A DNA stretch of 23,584 bases from Promethearchaeota archaeon (GTDB taxonomy: Archaea; Asgardarchaeota; Lokiarchaeia; Sigyniarchaeales; SOKP01): positions 1 to 23,584 of the forward strand of contig JAHLWH010000203.1 in NCBI GenBank assembly GCA_019058015.1, given 5' to 3'. The notes beneath the pieces are model-generated. The model did not search any database. It was not told where the DNA came from and was given only the letters and a program-made list of their open reading frames with translations. Both the position numbers and the translations under genes were made by a program. How positions within the stretch are numbered: the stretch's first letter is position 1; every line of letters starts with the position of its first letter. Of this stretch, positions 9,216-17,384 are shown piece after piece.

Positions 9216-9458
9216 TTAGAACAAATCAATCAACAAAATGTCTCCAATGGTAATGACTTTGTTAAAATTTACAATTAAATTTTTTTTATCTTCTATTTTT
9301 TTAGCCAATTTAATTTGTATATCATCAATTTTACCAGATTGGGGATTATAATTGAGATCAATAATCTTACCGATGATGTTTCCGGTGGCAATATCATAAC
9401 ATTGAAGGTTTAATAAATTTGAAGCCTTAATGACTTTAATATTTTTGCTGTTTTCCAT
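9216..9458 (-). CDS. PRC-barrel domain protein
   Basis: 80 aa with ASNLLNLQCYDIATGNIIGKIIDL...SGKIDDI...FNKVITIGDILLI, the typical PRC-barrel pattern. Confidence 0.8.
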   Translation of the reverse strand: MENSKNIKVIKASNLLNLQCYDIATGNIIGKIIDLNYNPQSGKIDDIQIKLAKKIEDKKNLIVNFNKVITIGDILLIDLF

Positions 9459-9607
9459 ATATTGACTTAAGAGTGAATTTGAATTTTATTTTCAATTCTA
9501 TAAGTATAGATTGAGTATCATGATTATTAAAATATTGAAAAAATTTAAACCATTACAAAACCTAACAATTAAATAATATAAAAATAAAATAAAAAATCGA
9601 CCTAAAT

Positions 9608-10817: not shown

Positions 10818-11243
10818 TCAAAATCCTTTCTTTTGAACTCCCATTTTCCATTCTTTCTTTTTTTTAAAGCGTGAAGTTTTAAAATTAAATTTCCCTATTC
10901 CACTTCCTTGAAGCATTTCCTCATATCTTCTTAAAATCTCTTCTAATACTTCTCTTGTATCTCGATTAAATACTTGTTTTGGCTTATTTAATAATCTTAA
11001 AACTTCTTTTTTTTTCGAATCTAATGTAAGGACTAAATTATCTAAAGGAATATGATAAGAGCGCACGAACCAGCCACCTTTCTCATCATGCGCTGTAAGC
11101 TTAAGAATATTTGAAGGCAATTTTTTTATTTTAAAATCAAATAATTTCTTACCTGGTTTGACTAAGATATTCAAATAATAAGGTAGGTCATTCTTGGGAT
11201 TTGTTATTTTACTTAAAAATTCCTTGAGTTTATCTTCGCTCAA
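10818..11243 (-). CDS. Hypothetical basic protein (141 aa)
   Basis: TTG-started ORF filling the gap, convergent with the Trbp111-like gene; no motif recognised. Confidence 0.7.
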   Translation of the reverse strand: MSEDKLKEFLSKITNPKNDLPYYLNILVKPGKKLFDFKIKKLPSNILKLTAHDEKGGWFVRSYHIPLDNLVLTLDSKKKEVLRLLNKPKQVFNRDTREVLEEILRRYEEMLQGSGIGKFNFKTSRFKKKKEWKMGVQKKGF

Positions 11244-11346
11244 AATCCAATCAAAATTAATTTTATTAAATATGCTTATTGATTAAGTTAATATTACAAA
11301 CTAATTAAATTAATATTATAAATAAATTCAATAGGTGTATGTTTAA

Positions 11347-11769
11347 ATGACTGTTCAAACTAAAACATTCTCAATTCGAACAAAAAGCTATTGTGATGTA
11401 GTTAATATTACGGAACAAGTTAGTAGCGCTGTAAAAGAAAGCTCTATAGAAAATGGGATCGTAAATATTCATGTCGCTGGCTCTACTGGAGCAATCTCAA
11501 CTGTAGAATATGAACCCGGATTAGTCAAACATGATATAGAGGAATTTTTAGAAAGGATTATTCCATATGATCAGAACTATAAACATCATAATACTTGGGG
11601 TGATCATAACGGAGCAGGGCATTTGAGAAGTTTCCTCTTAAAAACTTCGATCACGGTTCCAATTAACAATAGAAGACTACTATTGGGCACGTGGCAGCAA
11701 CTAGTTTTTGTAGAATGTGATGAGCACGCCCGCAATCGCGATATTTTTTGTACATTAATTGGGGAATAA
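11347..11769 (+). CDS. yjbQ: YjbQ/UPF0047 family protein (secondary thiamine-phosphate synthase enzyme)
   Basis: GSTGAISTVEYEPGL, HNGAGHLRS, LLLGTWQQLVFVECD. Confidence 0.92.
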   Translation: MTVQTKTFSIRTKSYCDVVNITEQVSSAVKESSIENGIVNIHVAGSTGAISTVEYEPGLVKHDIEEFLERIIPYDQNYKHHNTWGDHNGAGHLRSFLLKTSITVPINNRRLLLGTWQQLVFVECDEHARNRDIFCTLIGE

Positions 11770-11945
11770 TCAATTTCCTCTATGAATTTTTGATATTGGT
11801 CAGAATACAAAAAATTTTATATTTGTCAGAATTGTTAAAAAAGTAATTTTTATTTTCCATATGTTTAAATTGATATTTTTTTATTTAGATCTAAAATTTC
11901 TTTTTTTTTTGTTTCATTTTTAAAGTAATTGAAAAAGAAAATGAA

Positions 11946-12161
11946 TTAATTAAGTTTTTCAATCATTTTTTCTAATTCTGCCATAACTAACCTAAAATCA
12001 CTTCGACGCCTGATTAATTCCAGATTTTCTCCTATCTCTTGTACAGATTTTTTCATTCTTTCTAATTGACTTTTGTAAGATGTGTCTTTATTCAAAACAT
12101 TTTTCATTGAAAAAATTTGATATTGTAGTGATTCTAAAAAGCTATTTATAGAATAACTCAC
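11946..12161 (-). CDS. Small helical hypothetical protein (71 aa)
   Basis: GTG start preceded by an AGGTGG Shine-Dalgarno-like site; amphipathic helical composition. Confidence 0.6.
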   Translation of the reverse strand: MSYSINSFLESLQYQIFSMKNVLNKDTSYKSQLERMKKSVQEIGENLELIRRRSDFRLVMAELEKMIEKLN

Positions 12162-12337: not shown

Positions 12338-12685
12338 ATGAATGAAATTGAGGAGTTATTTAATTCCTGGAAAGATCTTAATATAAAAGTAGGAGCGAAA
12401 TTAGGGTCGTTCGAAATGACTGAGGTAAAAAAGCTTAGAATGGAACAAAGCAAGACTGAAGATGCAGTTTATGAGATATTAAAAGAGAAGGCTACTCCAG
12501 AGGTTGCAAAAATATTACCAGAAAAATGTGGGGATATGGAAATCGGCATTAATATTAGAGATAAAGAGTTTTATTTTGTTATGGAAGACCAAGACCCCGA
12601 GAGTGAAAAGCTAATGGCGATTGTTTTTGGAATTGATGAAAATATTAAAATTGTTAATGACTTTAATGTAGATGAATATGATTAA
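12338..12685 (+). CDS. Acidic hypothetical protein (115 aa)
   Basis: Clean ATG ORF co-oriented with and upstream of the GTPase; no motif recognised. Confidence 0.75.
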   Translation: MNEIEELFNSWKDLNIKVGAKLGSFEMTEVKKLRMEQSKTEDAVYEILKEKATPEVAKILPEKCGDMEIGINIRDKEFYFVMEDQDPESEKLMAIVFGIDENIKIVNDFNVDEYD

Positions 12686-12774: not shown

Positions 12775-13710
12775 TTGAGTGAAAGCAAAGATAATTTTGT
12801 TAAAATCATTTTTTCAGGCTTGGACAATGCGGGTAAGACGAGTGTGCTCACTGCTTTAGAGAAAAAATATAATTTTGAGAAGGAAATTTCGGAATTAAAA
12901 CCAACAATTAGAGTAAATTATCAGAGCACAAAATTTTTAGGAAATGACGTAAAATTTTGGGATATGGGTGGTCAGAGTCAGTATCGTGAGCTATATAAAG
13001 CGAAAGCAGAATTCTATTTTGCAGATACTGATTTATTGGTTTATTTAATAGATATTCAGGATAAACCAAGACTCCCCCAATCACTAGAATATTTAGGTGA
13101 GATTCTAGAATTTTTTTCAGATAATGATATGGACGTTCCTGTAATTGTAACCTTTCATAAATTTGATCCCGATTTGAGAATTGATGATAAATTAATAAAT
13201 TGGGTTATGAAATTAAAACAAAAGATTGCAGATGATTTTCCTGATTTAAAGATTTTATTCCAACAAACATCTATTTATGATATCATATCAATAGTGCAAT
13301 TGGTTTCATATGGACTCTCTCTGTTTGACGAGAAGTTTTTTGAGCTATCAGAGTTATTAGAAAAATATATAGGGATTTTAAATTGTTTATCGCTTATTCT
13401 TTTTGATAAAAATGGAATAATTATAAGTGAATTTTATAGTGATAATATCAATTCAGATACGTATATTGAGTTTTTAGAAGATATTAGAGAACATCTCTTT
13501 TTATTGAAGAGAATGGAAGAGGAAAACACTTTAATGAACGATCTTACAGATATGGAGGGGAATATTATTTCCTATTTATATAGAATTGAAGTAGGGAATG
13601 AGAATTTTTTCATTTCAAGTCTTTTTGATAGAGATTCAAAAGATAAGTTTGAAGGAGAATTTGTAAATTTAAAGGATGCAACTATTGCAATTTTAAAAGA
13701 GATTATATAA
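12775..13710 (+). CDS. Small GTPase of Rag/Gtr-like architecture (G domain plus C-terminal roadblock/longin-like domain)
   Basis: G1 GLDNAGKTS, G2 KPT, G3 WDMGGQ, G4 HKFD, G5 QTSIYD; C-terminal ~125 aa with LSELLEKY...LILFDKNGIIISE. TTG start. Confidence 0.88.
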   Translation: MSESKDNFVKIIFSGLDNAGKTSVLTALEKKYNFEKEISELKPTIRVNYQSTKFLGNDVKFWDMGGQSQYRELYKAKAEFYFADTDLLVYLIDIQDKPRLPQSLEYLGEILEFFSDNDMDVPVIVTFHKFDPDLRIDDKLINWVMKLKQKIADDFPDLKILFQQTSIYDIISIVQLVSYGLSLFDEKFFELSELLEKYIGILNCLSLILFDKNGIIISEFYSDNINSDTYIEFLEDIREHLFLLKRMEEENTLMNDLTDMEGNIISYLYRIEVGNENFFISSLFDRDSKDKFEGEFVNLKDATIAILKEII

Positions 13711-13718
13711 TTAATTAT

Positions 13719-13802
13719 TTATTCTATATTTAAAAGCATTCTCGCTCTGTCAATTAATTTTTCTTTCTTTTTCCTATGATCCTCAATAAAGTCTAAAAAT
13801 TC
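13719..13802 (-). pseudogene. Displaced duplicate of the trpS 3' end
   Basis: Minus strand reads EFLDFIEDHRKKKEKLIDRARMLLNIE*, versus ...VLKFIEDHRKKKEKLIDTAREILNIV* in intact trpS. No start codon; in-frame stop at 13803-13805. Confidence 0.92.
13750..13790. repeat. 41-bp perfect direct repeat, copy 1 (putative att core)
   Basis: TCAATTAATTTTTCTTTCTTTTTCCTATGATCCTCAATAAA, identical to 16315-16355. Confidence 0.95.
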
Positions 13803-13948
13803 TTATATTGCACTACACCGTTATATCTTCCTAAAAAATTTAAAGAAAACTATAAAGAAATCGATTTTAATTATGATTATCTTGATTTTACTCTAATTTG
13901 TTTTTCAGGTGGAAGTAGTTCAATAAAACGAGAAAATTGAGTAATACG

Positions 13949-14209
13949 TTATTTTTCTAACTTTTCTTTGACTTTATCCAATAATTCAAAGTAGAGTTTC
14001 TTAAAAAGGGCTAATTCTCGCTCGAGCTCTTGAATTTTATCATTTTTTACTTTACTCGAAAATATATGTTTTTTGAGCTTGTTCAAGGTCGTATTTGACA
14101 TTCCATTTCCAAAGTTAGCCTTCAGTCTTTCTTGAATTGTTAGATATGGAATACCTTCTTTTAACAGCGATTTTGCATAATCAATTTTTTTTTGACTCGA
14201 TTTACCCAT
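13949..14209 (-). CDS. Small basic protein, possible helix-turn-helix plus C-terminal coiled coil (86 aa)
   Basis: AKSLLKEGIPYLTIQERLKANFGNGMSNTTLNKLKK resembles an HTH unit; KIQELERELALFKKLYFELL is zipper-like. Starts 7 bp after the previous stop. Confidence 0.7.
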   Translation of the reverse strand: MGKSSQKKIDYAKSLLKEGIPYLTIQERLKANFGNGMSNTTLNKLKKHIFSSKVKNDKIQELERELALFKKLYFELLDKVKEKLEK

Positions 14210-14216
14210 ATTTCAT

Positions 14217-14555
14217 TCATCTCAAACTTTTTTCCTCTAATTGCTCAAGAATTTTAATGTGATCGTTGAGTAATTGTTCTTTTTTGATTTTTTCATGATT
14301 CTTTTTAATCTTAGCAAATATCCTACTCAGTTGAATTCCGAATAAAAAAGTGAAAGTCAGAAGACCCCCAACAAATAGAAGTGTGGGGATTAAAGGCCAT
14401 ATGTGAAATTTAATGTTTCTTGCGTGAATCGTGATAAAAGGAGCCGTTGCACTTGTGTATCTCAGCCAAATTCCCAATAAACAAAAGAAAAGTATAAGAA
14501 GTATAAGTATGCACCATATGTTCTTTTGAATTGTGATCATTTTAGTATCATTCAT
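14217..14555 (-). CDS. 2-TM membrane protein with charged C-terminal tail (112 aa)
   Basis: Two hydrophobic helices; ATG at 14555 overlaps the upstream stop (ATGAATGA), preferred over 14576. Confidence 0.7.
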   Translation of the reverse strand: MNDTKMITIQKNIWCILILLILFFCLLGIWLRYTSATAPFITIHARNIKFHIWPLIPTLLFVGGLLTFTFLFGIQLSRIFAKIKKNHEKIKKEQLLNDHIKILEQLEEKSLR

Positions 14556-16062
14556 GAGAAATTTCCGCCTGCTCATCTAATTGCCGTAGAACACCCTCAT
14601 ATTCGCTCATTAATTGTTTTTTTTGAATTTTTTTATCAATTTTTTTCTTATTGTAATAAATTAATATGGTGGAGATAATTATTATCAACACTGTATAACA
14701 GATGATACTGTTCACCAATGGAAATATAAAATACCAAAAAATAGGTACGTATAAGAGATAAGATTCACTCACAGATGTAATGATAATTTCTATAGGTATC
14801 AATATAAGAAGTATCCATAATTCGATTTTTCGTATTTTAACGACACTAATTTCCTCCATGAACATAAGAATAATTGCAATTATTAGATATAGGGAGGAAA
14901 AAATTGAAAAATCAAAGTTACCAGTTAAAAGGATTAATAAAATCCCGCATATGCAAATTATTAAAATCATATGTTTTTGAATTTGAAATTTTGTTGGAAA
15001 TATTTCCTTTATCCCTTTTCCTATTCCGATTACAATAAATATTATCCCTAAAAGTAATATAGGTTCTAATATAAATTTATTTTGAATAAAACCAAATGAT
15101 ATATTAGGAGATTCAAGATCAATAATTTGTAATAAATCATCTCCTGTCACATAGGCAAAATTCCCAGAAATATAAACGCTCTCTATGAACCCTCCATCTT
15201 TTATCTGGCTTAACTTTATTGGATTGTTCGGGTCGCTCACATTAATTAAGGTAAGACCGTCCCAGTCGGTCGCAATATAAGCAATATCTCTATATACATA
15301 AACATCCCAGGCAATATCTTCCTTTAAGTGCCATAATTCTATGGGATTACTTGGGTTTGATACATTAATCGCCCTTAATCCTTCATAAGCCTCCGCAATA
15401 TAAGCTATATTCCCAGAAATAAACATATTTTGTCCAATATGTTGTGGAGTTTGGTCATCCATAAAAGAGCCTAGTAAAGTTAGATTGGTTGGGTCGTTTA
15501 CATCAATCAATCTTATTAACTCTCTACCTCCAACTAAATAGGCGATATTTTCAGAAATAAACACATCTTTTATCCATCCATCATCATCAAATGTACCCAA
15601 GATCGTTGGTGAATTAGGATCATTGATATCATAGATTTCTAATCCCATTTCCTGGCCACAACCCCTCGCTGCATAGAGGATATTTTCAGAGACAAATGAA
15701 CACTCAATAAAATCAATATTCGCCAATTCTATTGGTTGACTTGGATTAGTGATATCGAGAATATGGAGCATACAATCTCCCCCAGTAACGTAAGCAATCT
15801 TTTCAGACACATATACTTTTTGCGCATTCATTATTGGATAATTACCTACTATTCTTGGAAAAATCGGGTTTGAAACATCGATGATTTGTAGTCCATTATT
15901 GGCATCGGCCACATAAGCAAAATCTTTGGATACATATATGTCCCATGAGCTTGAATGACCGACAATCTTTCCCACTGTTGAAGATGATAGTTTATTAGCC
16001 ACAATAATTGAAATGCAAATTATTCCAGCAATTATCACAATTTTTATTGATTTTGAGACCAT
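14548..16062 (-). CDS. LVIVD-repeat (7-blade beta-propeller) membrane protein
   Basis: N-terminal signal/anchor helix, then seven repeats of the type V-S-x-x-x-AYV...GL-x-IID-V-S-N-P-x-x-P, then about 5 TM helices and a charged tail. GGAGG SD at 16079-16075. Confidence 0.9.
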   Translation of the reverse strand: MVSKSIKIVIIAGIICISIIVANKLSSSTVGKIVGHSSSWDIYVSKDFAYVADANNGLQIIDVSNPIFPRIVGNYPIMNAQKVYVSEKIAYVTGGDCMLHILDITNPSQPIELANIDFIECSFVSENILYAARGCGQEMGLEIYDINDPNSPTILGTFDDDGWIKDVFISENIAYLVGGRELIRLIDVNDPTNLTLLGSFMDDQTPQHIGQNMFISGNIAYIAEAYEGLRAINVSNPSNPIELWHLKEDIAWDVYVYRDIAYIATDWDGLTLINVSDPNNPIKLSQIKDGGFIESVYISGNFAYVTGDDLLQIIDLESPNISFGFIQNKFILEPILLLGIIFIVIGIGKGIKEIFPTKFQIQKHMILIICICGILLILLTGNFDFSIFSSLYLIIAIILMFMEEISVVKIRKIELWILLILIPIEIIITSVSESYLLYVPIFWYFIFPLVNSIICYTVLIIIISTILIYYNKKKIDKKIQKKQLMSEYEGVLRQLDEQAEISHE

Positions 16063-16112
16063 ATTTAAAATTATCCTCCAAATAATAAAATAATTAATCG
16101 ACTATAAAAATG

Positions 16113-16211
16113 TTATCATAAATTATCATTATTACATTAAAAAAAAATATTAATTCTAATTTTTATGACCTAAGGGTGATAAATGGAGATAGAATTATCA
16201 TAAATTATCAT
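16113..16211. promoter_or_regulatory. Paired tandem TTATCAT motifs (putative protein-binding sites)
   Basis: TTATCATAAATTATCAT occurs at 16113-16129 and 16195-16211, with an inverted GTGATAA between them (16176-16182). Confidence 0.5.
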
Positions 16212-16283
16212 AAAAAATTAACAAAAAAATATTTAAGAAAATGAAACGTATACAAAATCTCCATTAGTATAATCTATTAATTT

Positions 16284-17384
16284 TTAAACTATATTCAGAA
16301 TTTCTCGAGCTGTATCAATTAATTTTTCTTTCTTTTTCCTATGATCCTCAATAAATTTCAAAACCTTCTCAACGCATTGTTTCTTATGATCTCCACACAT
16401 TAATGTGCCTGAAACGCATCTTTTATAGATTTCTTCTAATTTTCCATCATCTTTTTCAAAATGATACATTTCAATTTTATAGATCATACAAATGTCAGGT
16501 TGACCACCTAATTGTTCTTGCTCCTTTTTATCTTTGCGTCCACCAGTAAAAGCACCTTTTATTTTCTTTTCAATAGATTCTAGCGATTCGTTGAAATCAA
16601 AATAGCTATTCGGATTTCTCTTAGCCATTTTTTCAGAGCCATCAAGCCCTTGAAGTAATTTGTGATATGTTGCTCCTGGCACAAAAAAGTTTTTATAATA
16701 ACGTCGTGTTAAATCTCTGGTTAATCTAAGATGAGGATCTTGATCAATTCCGACGGGAACAATTGTAGGTTGCGGTCCATCTAATACTTGCGGTAAAACA
16801 ATATCACCAACTTGAATCAACGCCGCTAAATATAATCCAAAAGGTTTTTCTCCATAGATAGCATTCACCATATTTTGTGTTACTAATCTTCCTACTTTAA
16901 ATGCTACGTCCTTTACTATTCTTTCTTCAGATTGGCGCCAAATATAGGTTTTTTTTGGGTCAGGATCCAAACCTAATGCTAATATATCAGCTATATTATC
17001 AACGGCATCCGGTTCAGCGTCTTTATAAGAAATTCCATTATCTTCATAAGATTCTATATCCGCTACACAATAATACGCATGGGCGCCCATTTTTTGGAAT
17101 TCCACAATCTCTAATGCTGTTGTGAGCGTACCCAAGTGAAAGGGGCCGCTAGGTTTTATTCCTGACATAACTGCCCAAGGTTTTTTATTATCTATAGCTT
17201 TAAATATTGCATCCAAATCACGATGTCCAAAAATTATTTTTCTCCTAAAAAACCGATTTGTGCTCATTTTTTCCTTATCCGTAAAACTAACTTCTTGAAT
17301 ACCAAATTCTTTAATTAATCTCTCGTAGTCTTCATCATAAAGAACGGATGACCCCCATGGATCAATTCTGAAATCATCAGGCAA
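16284..17384 (-). CDS. trpS: Tryptophanyl-tRNA synthetase (archaeal/eukaryotic type)
   Basis: IDPWGS, FRRKIIFGHRD, SGIKPSGPFHLG (HIGH), VPVGIDQDPH, KMAK (KMSKS equivalent), AFTGGR, GG-x-PDIC, CVSGTLMCGDHK. TTG start. Confidence 0.96.
   Translation of the reverse strand: MPDDFRIDPWGSSVLYDEDYERLIKEFGIQEVSFTDKEKMSTNRFFRRKIIFGHRDLDAIFKAIDNKKPWAVMSGIKPSGPFHLGTLTTALEIVEFQKMGAHAYYCVADIESYEDNGISYKDAEPDAVDNIADILALGLDPDPKKTYIWRQSEERIVKDVAFKVGRLVTQNMVNAIYGEKPFGLYLAALIQVGDIVLPQVLDGPQPTIVPVGIDQDPHLRLTRDLTRRYYKNFFVPGATYHKLLQGLDGSEKMAKRNPNSYFDFNESLESIEKKIKGAFTGGRKDKKEQEQLGGQPDICMIYKIEMYHFEKDDGKLEEIYKRCVSGTLMCGDHKKQCVEKVLKFIEDHRKKKEKLIDTAREILNIV
16315..16355. repeat. 41-bp perfect direct repeat, copy 2 (inside trpS 3' end)
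   Basis: Identical to 13750-13790; encodes FIEDHRKKKEKLI(D) on the minus strand. Confidence 0.95.

What the first reader, a model, noticed from the sequence alone, without database searches (positions are those of the whole stretch)
13719..16355. Integrase-free mini-island at the 3' end of trpS that appears to swap the C-terminus of an essential tRNA synthetase
Seen: a perfect 41-bp direct repeat (13750-13790 = 16315-16355) brackets three accessory genes. Beyond the core the two copies stay colinear without gaps to stops at the same codon (19/31 nt identical): DRARMLLNIE* distal versus DTAREILNIV* in the intact gene. Several differences are synonymous (GAC/GAT, GCG/GCT, AGA/CGA, TTA/CTG), so both tails look shaped by selection as TrpS ends. 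The distal stop is 8 bp from the convergent GTPase stop. Established: site-specific integration into a gene 3' end restores the gene with an element-borne tail and displaces the native tail. Inference: the distal copy is the native end and a 2,565-bp circle integrated here. With no recombinase inside, it is either a non-autonomous cassette mobilised in trans or a reduced element. Targets are most often tRNA genes, so a tRNA-synthetase gene target in an Asgard-like genome is worth attention.
Basis: partly seen in the sequence, partly recalled or inferred. Interest (0 to 1): 0.85.

Follow-up and report, generated by a model that had tools for sequence, protein, structure and literature searches.

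The report
Cargo island swaps TrpS tail
Three accessory genes (2.6 kb) were spliced into the end of the essential tryptophanyl-tRNA synthetase gene of a Loki-type Asgard archaeon, replacing the enzyme's last nine amino acids, and similar recombinase-free insertions sit behind other genes of the same genome.

Summary
An exact 41-nt direct repeat (13750-13790 = 16315-16355) brackets three minus-strand genes, and the distal copy continues in frame to a stop 8 nt from the GTPase stop.

Three congeners (G004, G001, G003) and one metagenome contig have trpS abutting the convergent GTPase with no insert. G004 ends in RARMLLNIE*, as the distal copy does. G002 shares the insert. The trpS/GTPase adjacency is ancestral: 19 of 22 family loci. 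Independent contigs from three other studies bridge both junctions, and two of those studies also hold empty-site contigs.

The island has no recombinase. The 94%-complete bin has only a XerA-like gene and IS607-like TnpA genes.

The same architecture (intact gene, cargo, displaced 3' fragment, clean empty sites in G001 and G004) recurs at three or more other genes.

Best reading: a circular DNA carrying a trpS-like arm integrated by a single crossover. The catalyst was host homologous recombination (about 0.45) or an integrase acting in trans or since lost (about 0.35).

This is a new variant of a known kind, of moderate interest.

The parts
16284..17384 (-). trpS (tryptophan--tRNA ligase, 366 aa). 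It is intact but chimeric: host body joined to a foreign last 9 codons. Single copy in the genome.
   Evidence: ORF. PF00579 1.5e-39. TIGR00233 217 bits > 176.75 and NF008926 351.6 > 320. 1 match in G000 at E<=1e-30.
16315..16355 (.). Proximal copy of the 41-nt exact repeat (attL-like core), inside trpS. It encodes FIEDHRKKKEKLI plus the first two bases of the following D codon.
16284..16314 (-). Island-borne replacement tail of trpS (last base of the D codon, then TAREILNIV and the stop). 19 of 31 nt match the native tail.
   Evidence: The same tail is in G002. It resembles family-type TrpS ends.
16063..16283 (.). AT-rich non-coding arm of the island, between the trpS stop and the LVIVD gene. 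It holds two 39-nt imperfect direct repeats (16113-16151 and 16195-16233, 82% alike), each with the same exact 17-mer. It may be a promoter or operator; function untested.
   Evidence: family D4. The 17-mer occurs only at these 2 places in the genome. GC is 0.224 in the 500-nt bin 16001-16500 that contains it.
14548..16062 (-). Cargo gene 1: a 504-aa membrane protein. It has an N-terminal hydrophobic segment, LVIVD repeats, and a C-terminal block of hydrophobic segments (about residues 325-472).
   Evidence: PF08309 LVIVD 2.9e-42. Hydropathy scan. The only close relative is in G002 (98%); the next best in 154 genomes is 51% over a repeat segment.
14217..14576 (-). Cargo gene 2: a 119-aa protein with 2-3 hydrophobic segments and no family. 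It overlaps gene 1 by 29 nt.
13949..14209 (-). Cargo gene 3: an 86-aa protein with a small three-helix N-terminal part and one long C-terminal helix. It has no family and is not a recognisable recombinase or excisionase.
   Evidence: No Pfam or NCBIfam hit. AlphaFold model pLDDT 92.2, helices 3-17, 22-33 and 39-85. Foldseek against PDB: 0 of 59 matches at E<=0.001. Relatives found in 10 of 40 other genomes, none of them in the 24 other genomes of its own family.
13791..13948 (.). Non-coding distal end of the island.
   Evidence: It has no counterpart in the empty sites.
13750..13790 (.). Distal copy of the 41-nt exact repeat (attR-like core).
13719..13749 (-). Displaced native trpS tail (last base of the D codon, then RARMLLNIE and the stop), now an orphan fragment.
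   Evidence: It matches the live trpS end of G004 in sequence and in its 8-nt distance to the GTPase stop.
12775..13710 (+). Convergent small GTPase (311 aa, Arf / Gtr1-RagA type). It is the ancestral downstream neighbour of trpS.
   Evidence: Pfam Arf 3.4e-22 and Gtr1_RagA 2.1e-20. Convergent and adjacent to trpS in 19 of 22 loci of the family.
13750..16314 (.). The inserted unit as one repeat period (2565 bp): one core, the replacement tail, three genes and two non-coding arms.
   Evidence: A contig joint skipping exactly 2565 nt (13749->16315) is present in run X5.

Best explanation
A 2,565-bp cargo-only island was inserted by ONE reciprocal crossover (Campbell-type) between the chromosomal trpS 3' end and a circular DNA. 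The island holds an operon for an LVIVD-repeat membrane protein, a small membrane protein and a small helical protein. The circular DNA carried a diverged, roughly 90-nt trpS-3'-like arm.

The crossover fell inside a 41-nt stretch where the arm and the gene were identical. It left three things: a complete trpS whose last 9 codons come from the arm; the cargo; and an orphan fragment made of the arm's left part, the core and the native tail, next to the GTPase gene.

The island encodes no recombinase. I think the crossover was most likely made by the host's homologous-recombination machinery acting on the arm. That is the mechanism proposed for Rhs C-terminal displacement, and it would also explain the other look-alike islands in this genome.

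Shown: the insertion, its polarity, the tail swap, the lack of a recombinase gene, and the recurrence. Inferred: the circular intermediate and the catalyst. In this MAG the island may simply have been inherited from the common ancestor with G002, or received from a related strain.

The confidence of 0.45 is for the whole statement including the catalyst. The insertion with tail swap alone I hold at about 0.95, and a single crossover of a circle at about 0.85.
For: Insertion and polarity:
- Empty sites in G004, G001 and G003, and an occupied site in G002.
- An empty metagenome contig.
- trpS and the GTPase are convergent and adjacent in 19 of 22 family loci.
- G004's live tail equals the window's orphan tail.

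Structure is real:
- X11's 4661-nt contig spans 12779-16508. X9 contigs bridge attR and attL, and an X5 contig bridges attR.

No recombinase:
- The three cargo proteins have no recombinase domain.
- The genome has one PF00589 gene, next to orc1/cdc6 and conserved in G001, G002 and G004 (XerA-like), plus a 27-residue fragment.
- The three PF00239 genes are about 200 aa. One (C45) sits beside a 429-aa ORF that I read by eye as TnpB-like; one (C29) has a TGA inside its match. I call them IS607-type from recall.

For homologous recombination as the catalyst:
- A self-blastn scan listed 52 direct-repeat pairs. About 16 of them are an intact gene plus a partial copy of its own 3' end 0.8-5.7 kb downstream.
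- Three of these (C117, C195, C272) have clean empty sites in both G001 and G004.
- Four-way alignments show the same layout. The proximal copy is host left flank plus island right flank. The distal copy is island left flank plus host right flank.
- Their arms are 172-228 nt and 88-92% identical to the resident gene. One arm includes about 70 nt of homologous downstream spacer.
- Crossover positions differ: inside the coding sequence in C272, at the stop codon in C195, and a mosaic in C117.
- The cargo is ordinary and heterogeneous: a ferredoxin-type protein with an 80% nt paralogue elsewhere in G004, a ParB/DUF488 protein, and a GT87-like protein.
- None of these islands carries an integrase.
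Against: - No circular junction was seen, but only assembled contigs could be laid.
- The trpS arm is about 60% identical outside the core and 100% identical inside it. That looks more like a dedicated attP than a random piece of a relative's chromosome. A 41-nt core is also within the usual size range of archaeal att sites (29-69 bp in crenarchaea, PMC6563490).
- The island sits at the same site in two backgrounds. The window's orphan tail is of the G004 type (RARMLLNIE). The about 5%-divergent lineage in X5, X9 and X11 has the G001 type (RARELLNIE). Repeated insertion at one site fits a site-specific enzyme.
- 3'-downstream duplications outnumber 5'-upstream ones by about 16 to 2. That is typical of integrase targets, although selection for keeping the promoter could give the same bias.
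- The bin is 94% complete and MGEs are often unbinned. Sister genome G002 holds a 407-aa tyrosine recombinase on an element of at least 16 kb.
- 41 nt of identity is short for efficient homologous recombination.
Confidence: 0.45

Rival explanations
1. The island is a non-autonomous or reduced site-specific integrative element. A tyrosine (or other) integrase, encoded elsewhere on a helper element or once present in the island and since deleted, recombined an attP with the trpS 3' end (attB). The attP consisted of the 41-nt core plus the element's own tail.
For: - It has the classic signature: an exact core, an element-borne replacement tail with its own stop, and empty sites in relatives.
- Core length is in the known archaeal att range, and 14 of 68 thaumarchaeal elements use 3'-distal parts of protein genes (PMC6563490, passages).
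- Arm identity drops sharply from 41 of 41 to 19 of 31 at the core edge.
- The island is in two flank backgrounds at the same site.
- An MGE-type integrase exists in sister genome G002.
- Integrase-free islands moved by host-supplied functions are documented: the E. coli MccH47 island (PMC3191183, passages).
Against: - There is no integrase or fragment of one in the island. The non-coding arms of 158 and 220 nt are too short to hide one.
- There is no MGE integrase in the 94%-complete bin.
- No second element was found at trpS in the 28 relatives' loci examined.
- The 41-mer is at no other place in 154 genomes of the order, and not in IMG/VR.
- The look-alike islands at other genes have long diverged arms, variable crossover points and a conversion-like mosaic. 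A fixed-site enzyme does not predict these.
Confidence: 0.35
2. The occupied state is ancestral, and the empty sites in G001, G003, G004 and the metagenome contig are deletions by recombination between the two repeat copies.
For: Recombination between the 41-nt copies would indeed regenerate an empty site. Empty and occupied contigs coexist in X5 and X9.
Against: - trpS and the GTPase are convergent neighbours in 19 of 22 loci across many genera of the family.
- The cargo has no close relative in any of 154 genomes except G002.
- The 86-aa protein family is missing from the 24 other genomes of the family searched.
- A deletion would leave either tail at random, yet all three empty congeners carry genus-type native tails.
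Confidence: 0.03
3. The repeat and the island's position are an assembly artefact: a chimera of two strains, or a free circular episome wrongly threaded through the shared 41-mer.
For: In run X1, probably the source sample, Logan contigs break at both repeat copies. The 41-nt piece has about double depth (24.2 against 10-11.4). That graph alone cannot tell an integrated island from an empty site plus a circle.
Against: - In the divergent lineage the two copies differ, so assemblies cross them. X11 has one contig over 12779-16508. X9 records 22 and 26 bridge attR and attL. X5 record 15 bridges attR.
- G002's independent k141 contig runs from the LVIVD gene through the core into trpS.
Confidence: 0.02

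Closest known systems
[quoted passage not shown] 2019, PMC6563490; passages read)
   Same: Both have flanking direct repeats and an insertion in the 3' end of a protein gene. In both, the element supplies a new stop codon, and the insertion is verified by an empty site in a related genome. Sizes go down to 2.6 kb.
   Different: Those elements carry an integrase by definition, and their att sites are short (median 17 bp). Here there is no integrase. The exact core is 41 nt inside a diverged homologous arm of about 90 nt, and the host is a Promethearchaeia (Loki) archaeon.
[quoted passage not shown] 2009, PMC2935791; passages read)
   Same: In both, an incoming piece carries a fragment of the gene's conserved part plus a new end. 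The gene gets the new end, and the old end is shunted downstream as an orphan fragment with a copy of the conserved part. No integrase is involved, and a single crossover of a circle is the proposed route.
   Different: Rhs tips are toxin/immunity modules and build long arrays. Here the gene is a housekeeping aminoacyl-tRNA synthetase. Only 9 residues change, conservatively. There is one displaced tail, and the selected payload is the downstream cargo rather than the new tail.
Microcin H47 genomic island of E. coli (Azpiroz et al. 2011, PMC3191183; passages read)
   Same: It is a small island flanked by long imperfect direct repeats (148/144 bp, 76% identical) with no recombinase gene of its own. 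Crossovers occur in several stretches of identity, and the functions come from the host.
   Different: It is bacterial. Its excision and integration were shown experimentally and occur without homologous recombination. It was not described as swapping a gene's end.
Known Asgard integrated elements: Heimdallarchaeum aloposons and HeimV1 (PMC8813620), and Atabeyarchaeia integrated MGEs with the 2,644-bp 'mini-Yucahu' (PMC11529989); passages read
   Same: They are integrated elements in Asgard genomes. Some coexist as integrated and excised forms in one sample. One 2.6-kb sub-element carries no integrase of its own.
   Different: Aloposons have giant tandem genes and sit at tRNA genes. HeimV1 and the Atabeya elements encode tyrosine integrases and use tRNA sites or an 11-bp motif. 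In the passages I read, none is reported to replace the end of a protein gene.

Membership tests
Site-specific integrative element (tyrosine-recombinase type iMGE / cryptic integrated element) | Flanking direct repeats (attL/attR) that are hybrids of host and element sequence | tested here: met
   Exact 41-nt copies. The proximal copy continues into island DNA and the distal copy into host DNA identical to G004's empty site.
Site-specific integrative element (tyrosine-recombinase type iMGE / cryptic integrated element) | Empty target site in related genomes | tested here: met
   G001, G003 and G004 (3 of 4 congeners) and 1 metagenome contig.
Site-specific integrative element (tyrosine-recombinase type iMGE / cryptic integrated element) | An integrase gene inside the element | tested here: not met
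   Pfam and NCBIfam scans of all three ORFs found no recombinase domain. The fold of the 86-aa protein has no significant match.
Site-specific integrative element (tyrosine-recombinase type iMGE / cryptic integrated element) | An excised circular form with attP | tested here: inconclusive
   No back-joining joint is listed among contigs of 4 runs. Contigs drop rare forms and raw reads were not available.
Homologous-recombination 'displacement' cassettes (Rhs-type C-terminal displacement model) | An intact gene with a new end, plus a downstream orphan fragment that keeps a copy of the conserved part and the old end | tested here: met
   The same layout is at C117, C195 and C272.
Homologous-recombination 'displacement' cassettes (Rhs-type C-terminal displacement model) | The arm is a homologue of the target gene over its whole length, with crossovers at variable positions within it | tested here: inconclusive
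   For trpS the arm is about 90 nt at 84%, with one 41-nt identity block. For the other three islands the arms are 172-228 nt at 88-92%, with different crossover points and one mosaic. Only one event per locus can be seen.
Homologous-recombination 'displacement' cassettes (Rhs-type C-terminal displacement model) | Dependence on the host recombinase (RecA/RadA) and independence of any integrase | not testable with these tools
   This needs genetics or raw-read junction spectra.
Transposon / insertion sequence / casposon | Terminal inverted repeats and a target-site duplication made by staggered cutting, plus a transposase or Cas1 | tested here: not met
   No inverted repeat at the island ends appears among the 25 longest of 85 pairs. 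The repeat is flanked by homologous but diverged sequence on both sides, which a fill-in duplication cannot produce. There is no transposase or Cas1 domain.
Integron gene cassette | An IntI integrase with attI next to an array of attC-bounded cassettes | tested here: not met
   The only full PF00589 gene of the genome is the XerA-like one next to orc1/cdc6 on another contig. The island sits in a gene's 3' end, not in an array. attC structure was not modelled.
Xer-exploiting element (IMEX) | Integration at the chromosomal dif site by the host Xer recombinase | not tested
   No dif model was available. The look-alike islands use four unrelated genes as targets, which argues against one dif-like site.
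Aloposon (Asgard) | Tandem giant genes (3,000-6,000 aa), tRNA target, MinD/ParA-like gene set | tested here: not met
   The largest cargo ORF is 504 aa. There is no tRNA in the window. The definition is from PMC8813620.

The most novel reading that the evidence does not exclude
In this Promethearchaeia genus, accessory genes are routinely gained by an integrase-independent 'homology-arm cassette' route. Circular DNAs that carry a copy of the 3' end of a resident gene integrate by the host's own recombination into that gene. This restores the gene with a foreign tail and leaves the native tail as an orphan. The trpS island would be one of at least four proven and about 16 candidate cases in a 3.8-Mb genome. 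[quoted passage not shown]
Probability: 0.35. Interest if true: 0.75.

Novelty: new variant of a known kind. Interest (0 to 1): 0.55.

Why it matters
The finding shows, with empty-site proof, that an essential aminoacyl-tRNA synthetase of an Asgard archaeon works with a C-terminal end supplied by incoming DNA. It also shows that the insert is polymorphic among closely related lineages in marine-sediment and cold-seep metagenomes.

Taken alone, that is a new example of a known phenomenon: integration into the 3' end of a protein gene with restoration of the gene.

The same recombinase-free layout is repeated behind several unrelated genes of the same genome, each with empty sites in congeners. 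If host recombination drives this, it would be a simple route for gene gain in Asgard genomes, whose expansion by transfer and duplication is an active question. It can be tested directly with raw reads and closed genomes.

Tried and rejected
Searches for relatives of the island that found nothing:
- The 41-mer, the 86-aa protein and the 504-aa protein in IMG/VR: 0 loci each.
- The 41-mer in metagenome contigs: only 1 record, an empty site.
- The 504-aa protein in 154 genomes of the order and in genome contigs: only G002's 2577-nt contig is close.
- blastn of the island against its own genome: only itself.
- The 17-mer of the internal 39-nt repeats: only its 2 copies.

RNA: no tRNA and no Rfam family at gathering score in the window.

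The 86-aa protein:
- No Pfam or NCBIfam family.
- A confident model (pLDDT 92.2), but 0 of 59 Foldseek matches at E<=0.001. The best match, at E 0.9, is a transposase HTH over 45 columns. I make no claim from that.
- In 7 of 8 places examined in other families' genomes, its relatives directly follow a 357-395-aa ORF on the same strand. By eye, these ORFs start with hydrophobic residues; this was not tested. That speaks for a regulatory pair rather than an MGE gene.

Circle junction: no back-joining joint was listed in the contigs of X1, X5, X9 or X11. This is no evidence against a circle.

Coexistence of empty and occupied contigs in X5 and X9 may reflect different strains or species. I do not count it as excision.

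Other candidate islands that were NOT clean:
- C110: the right flank is not syntenic in G004.
- C228: empty in G001, but the boundaries are not collinear.
- C240: a 10.5-kb G000-specific stretch.
- C10: nested differences between G001 and G004.
- C62: a similar structure is also present in G001 and G004.
- C184, C210, C264, C267, C70 and C84 were not compared with relatives.

Integrase hunt:
- G002's 407-aa recombinase lies on an element of at least 16 kb. The element starts 104 nt past a thioredoxin gene, and its far end runs off the contig. I found no flanking repeat.
- The element is unrelated to trpS. Its integrase has no match in G000.

Readings rejected: transposon or target-site duplication, integron cassette, aloposon (see the membership tests), ancestral presence, and assembly chimera (see the rivals).

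Tools not available:
The 23 members of the TrpS cluster of P0001 could not be listed, so the attL of the divergent lineage remains unseen.
- The look-up of encoding contigs was declared closed and was not called.
- Supplementary files of the papers were not consulted. Table S2 of PMC6563490 may list aminoacyl-tRNA synthetase targets that I could not see.

Literature searches behind 'not reported':
- ('aloposon').
- I found no paper describing trpS as an integration target, or recombinase-free 3'-arm islands in Asgard archaea. These were word searches of open-access text only.

Full report
OBSERVATION

The window is a whole 23,584-nt contig (C207) of a 3.84-Mb, 283-contig, 94%-complete MAG. Names given by sources to TrpS relatives place it in Promethearchaeota/Lokiarchaeota, and the sister contig is titled 'Promethearchaeota archaeon'.

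- An exact 41-nt direct repeat lies at 13750-13790 and 16315-16355, 2565 nt apart. These are the only two copies in the genome.
- The proximal copy is inside trpS (16284-17384, minus strand, 366 aa). trpS matches PF00579 at 1.5e-39 and TIGR00233 at 217 bits over its cut-off. It gave a single match in the genome.
- TrpS ends ...FIEDHRKKKEKLIDTAREILNIV. The distal copy continues in the same frame to ...DRARMLLNIE*.
- Beyond the core, 19 of 31 nt are identical. The distal stop is 8 nt from the stop of the convergent GTPase gene (12775-13710; Arf and Gtr1/RagA domains).
- Some likeness also extends about 15 nt on the other side of the core, giving about 91 nt at 84% overall.

THE CARGO

Three co-directional minus-strand ORFs fill the interval.

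- A 504-aa protein has LVIVD repeats (PF08309, 2.9e-42), an N-terminal hydrophobic segment and a C-terminal block of hydrophobic segments.
- A 119-aa protein has 2-3 hydrophobic segments.
- An 86-aa protein has no family. Its model is confident: pLDDT 92.2, two short helices and a 47-residue helix. It has no significant structural match: 0 of 59 at E<=0.001.

None is a recombinase. Composition does not differ from the surrounding sequence. There is no tRNA or Rfam RNA in the window.

POLARITY: THE DISTAL TAIL IS NATIVE

TrpS was found in 36 of 41 genomes searched, a count that includes G000; four of these are congeners.

- In G004, G001 and G003 the GTPase gene follows trpS directly and convergently, and none of the three cargo proteins gives a hit.
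- G004's trpS ends RARMLLNIE*, followed by the same 8-nt spacer and GTPase end as the window's distal copy.
- G001 ends RARELLNIE* and carries the exact 41-mer. G003 ends KAREILGID*.
- G002 (TrpS 98% identical) has the replacement tail DTAREILNIV* followed by the LVIVD gene. Its 2577-nt contig ends inside that gene.
- A 168-kb metagenome record also shows an empty site.

Among 28 further trpS loci, the GTPase is the convergent neighbour in 19 of the 22 loci of the same family. It lies upstream in 1 locus and was not found in 2. It is absent from all 6 loci of other families. So adjacency is ancestral and the island is an insertion.

The replacement tail resembles the family-wide consensus (for example ...DKAREILNID and ...DTARDILNID), whereas RAR(M/E)LLNIE is confined to the genus. 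The arm therefore descends from a trpS of another lineage.

INDEPENDENT ASSEMBLIES AND POPULATIONS

Twenty runs of 9 studies hold part of the stretch. I laid Logan contigs of four of them.

- X11: one 4661-nt contig covers 12779-16508, that is both junctions, with 193 differences.
- X9: contigs bridge attR (13625-14676) and attL (14767-16379).
- X5: a contig bridges attR.
- X5 also has a contig joint that skips exactly 2565 nt (13749->16315).
- X9 also has a contig that runs from the GTPase flank through the core straight into trpS. Its 24 loose letters equal window 16356-16379.
- In both X5 and X9 the island's depth (about 38 and about 18-22) is below that of the flanks.

So both alleles occur in the same samples. 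This may reflect different strains and is not proof of excision.

In X1, probably the source, contigs break at both copies and the 41-nt piece has double depth.

The divergent occupied lineage has 10 substitutions in 13738-13782. Its orphan fragment reads FIEDHTKNKEKLTDRARELLNIE*. Its native tail is thus of the G001 type (GCT..GAG), while the window's is of the G004 type (GCG..ATG). The island therefore sits at one site in two backgrounds, either through independent insertions or through later exchange of the flank.

The 5 core changes (three of them non-conservative) are either decay or the island's own arm sequence. Its attL could not be seen. Table 3 was cut, so further differences there cannot be excluded.

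Between G000 and G002, the island is less diverged (12 of 1035) than the trpS body (30 of 1029; Fisher p = 0.005). The same holds at the dinB island: cargo 97.9% against gene body 95.0%. This hints that the islands are younger than the genomes around them.

WHO MADE THE CROSSOVER?

The genome has few candidates.

- There is one full tyrosine recombinase (310 aa). It overlaps the end of an orc1/cdc6 gene and has equal-scoring counterparts in G001, G002 and G004. This is what one expects of the chromosomal XerA. That identification rests on context and on my knowledge of archaeal XerA; it was not tested.
- There is also a 27-residue fragment at a contig start.
- There are three serine-recombinase genes of about 200 aa. 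One (C45) sits beside a 429-aa ORF that I read by eye as TnpB-like; the large ORFs beside the other two were not tested, and one (C29) has a TGA inside its match. I call them IS607-type from recall.
- G002 has a 407-aa tyrosine recombinase on an element of at least 16 kb beside a thioredoxin gene. The element is absent from that site in G000.

MGE integrases thus exist in the genus, but none is linked to trpS. Nothing related to the island was found in IMG/VR, in 154 genomes of the order or in genome contigs.

THE SAME ARCHITECTURE ELSEWHERE IN THE GENOME

A self-blastn scan of the laid genome listed 52 direct-repeat pairs (>=40 nt, >=78% identity, 0.8-40 kb apart). I sorted them by hand from the printed table.

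- About 16 are an intact gene with a partial copy of its own 3' end 0.8-5.7 kb downstream.
- 2 are 5' fragments lying upstream and 4 are 5' fragments lying downstream.
- The rest are tandem paralogues or intergenic repeats.

I compared nine candidate loci with the congeners (C210's locus was fetched but not compared). Three are clean.

| Contig | Host gene | Cargo | Empty in |
|---|---|---|---|
| C117 | enoyl-CoA hydratase | ParB/DUF488 protein plus two unknowns | G001, G004 |
| C195 | nucleotidyltransferase | GT87-like protein, MobA-like fragment, IS630-type HTH | G001, G004 |
| C272 | dinB | ferredoxin-type protein | G001, G004; occupied in G002 at 97% |

Four-way alignments show the trpS layout each time. 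The proximal copy is host left flank plus island right flank. The distal copy is island left flank plus host right flank.

- The arms are 172-228 nt and 88-92% identical to the resident gene.
- The crossover lies inside the coding sequence in C272, where the tail changes from TVP* to TIP*.
- It lies at the stop codon in C195, where there is no tail swap.
- It is a mosaic in C117, whose arm also includes about 70 nt of homologous downstream spacer.
- None of these islands has an integrase.

The other six loci were not clean; see 'tried and rejected'.

MECHANISM

All four proven islands are what a single crossover between a circle carrying a homologous arm and the resident gene produces. Two catalysts are possible.

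An integrase acting in trans, or since lost, would explain:
- the exact core of typical att size;
- the sharp drop of identity at the core's edges;
- the 3' bias;
- the use of the same site in two backgrounds.

Host homologous recombination would explain:
- the complete lack of integrases in all the islands and in the bin;
- the long, uniformly diverged, clearly orthologous arms;
- the differing crossover positions and the mosaic;
- the ordinary cargo.

Once an island is flanked by such repeats, recombination between them would regenerate an arm-bearing circle. That circle could integrate in any relative whose gene matches the arm. This is the model proposed for Rhs C-terminal displacement (PMC2935791, passages).

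I put about 0.45 on homologous recombination, about 0.35 on an integrase, and the rest on other or mixed routes. For example, an integrase may have founded the arms and recombination may have spread them. The circle itself has not been seen.

COMPARISON WITH WHAT IS KNOWN

- Insertion into the 3'-distal part of protein genes, with a new stop from the element, is documented for 14 of 68 thaumarchaeal integrated elements, all with integrases (PMC6563490).
- Recombinase-free islands with long imperfect repeats exist in E. coli (MccH47, PMC3191183).
- In the passages I read, Asgard integrated elements described so far use tRNA genes or a short motif and encode integrases (PMC8813620 and PMC11529989).

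So the single trpS case is a new member or variant of a known kind. The recurrence of recombinase-free 3'-arm islands in one Asgard genus is the part I did not find described (word searches; open-access text only; supplements not seen).

VERDICT

- Observation: confirmed.
- Insertion with a tail swap of an essential synthetase: shown.
- Mechanism: open between two readings.
- Novelty: new variant of a known kind.
- Interest: 0.55. It is not lower still because the genome-wide recurrence without integrases makes a concrete, testable case for an integrase-independent route of gene gain in Asgard archaea.

LIMITS

- Only contigs, not reads, could be laid.
- The classification of the 52 repeat pairs used crude ORF calls and my reading of the table.
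- G002's distal junction is unassembled.

Noticed in passing
G000 contig C117 (locus L086): repeat copies at contig positions 13130-13357 and 16466-16693: A second recombinase-free island sits behind an enoyl-CoA hydratase gene. A 228-nt copy of the gene's 3' end plus downstream spacer lies 3336 nt downstream. The cargo is a ParB-N/HTH-ParB/DUF488 protein and two unknown proteins. Clean empty sites in G001 and G004. G002 holds the cargo at 81% identity on another contig.
   Followed up: yes
G000 contig C195 (locus L087): 11750-11954 and 15083-15287: A third island sits behind a Pol-beta-type nucleotidyltransferase gene (206-nt arm, 92%). The crossover is at the stop codon, so there is no tail swap. 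The cargo is a GT87-like membrane protein, a MobA-like fragment and an IS630-type HTH protein. Empty in G001 and G004.
   Followed up: yes
G000 contig C272 (locus L095): 9347-9518 and 11101-11272: A fourth island sits behind dinB (172-nt arm, 92%, 78-nt exact block). The DinB tail changes from TVP* to TIP*. The single cargo gene is a 4Fe-4S protein with an 80% nt paralogue elsewhere in G004. Empty in G001 and G004, occupied in G002 (97%).
   Followed up: yes
G000 contigs C10, C62, C110, C184, C210, C228, C240, C264, C267, C70, C84 (coordinates): Further candidates with a gene plus a partial 3' copy 0.8-5.7 kb downstream. Several carry toxin-antitoxin-like pairs (PIN/AbrB, HEPN/nucleotidyltransferase, recognised by eye). 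Five were compared with congeners and were not clean. Six were not compared.
   Followed up: partly
G000 contig C110 5892-6248 (locus L085): A repeat of about 355 nt has 6 near-full copies in G000 (80-91%) and many copies in G002 and G004. It has no significant Rfam match (best E 0.026, below gathering score). It may be a non-autonomous element or an RNA gene.
   Followed up: partly
G000 contig C195 12104-12205 (locus L087 3605-3706): A 102-nt element with complementary ends (MITE-like) has 6 copies at 92-97% in G000 and copies at 87-97% in G002 and G004. One copy lies inside the C195 island near its left junction.
   Followed up: partly
window 16113-16151 and 16195-16233: Two 39-nt imperfect direct repeats (82% alike, 82 nt apart), each with the same exact 17-mer, lie in the island's non-coding arm upstream of the LVIVD gene. 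They are unique in the genome. They may be an operator or promoter, or protein-binding sites.
   Followed up: partly
Loci L058-L064 (genomes G026, G028, G036, G038, G040 of two other families, f2 and f3): Relatives of the 86-aa protein are multi-copy (up to 8 per genome) in families f2 and f3 of the order. None was found in the 24 other genomes of the window's own family. In 7 of 8 places they directly follow a 357-395-aa ORF, and in two places they flank ABC-transporter-like genes. This is an undescribed small-protein family.
   Followed up: partly
G002 contig C465 (loci L112, L114), about 14761-15984: A 407-aa tyrosine recombinase sits at the edge of a block of small unknown ORFs at least 16 kb long. 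The block starts 104 nt past a thioredoxin gene. The site is unoccupied in G000 (C129), and the far end runs off the contig.
   Followed up: partly
G000 contigs C45 (1637-2239), C29 (1771-2358), C130 (7104-7730): Three serine-recombinase genes of about 200 aa sit next to large ORFs of about 430-835 aa. Only the C45 neighbour was read, by eye, as TnpB-like; the C29 match has a TGA inside it. I call them IS607-type from recall.
   Followed up: no
window 12338-12685: A 115-aa ORF without any Pfam family is conserved upstream of the GTPase in G001, G003 and G004 (56-92% identity). It is probably a partner of the Arf/RagA-like GTPase.
   Followed up: no
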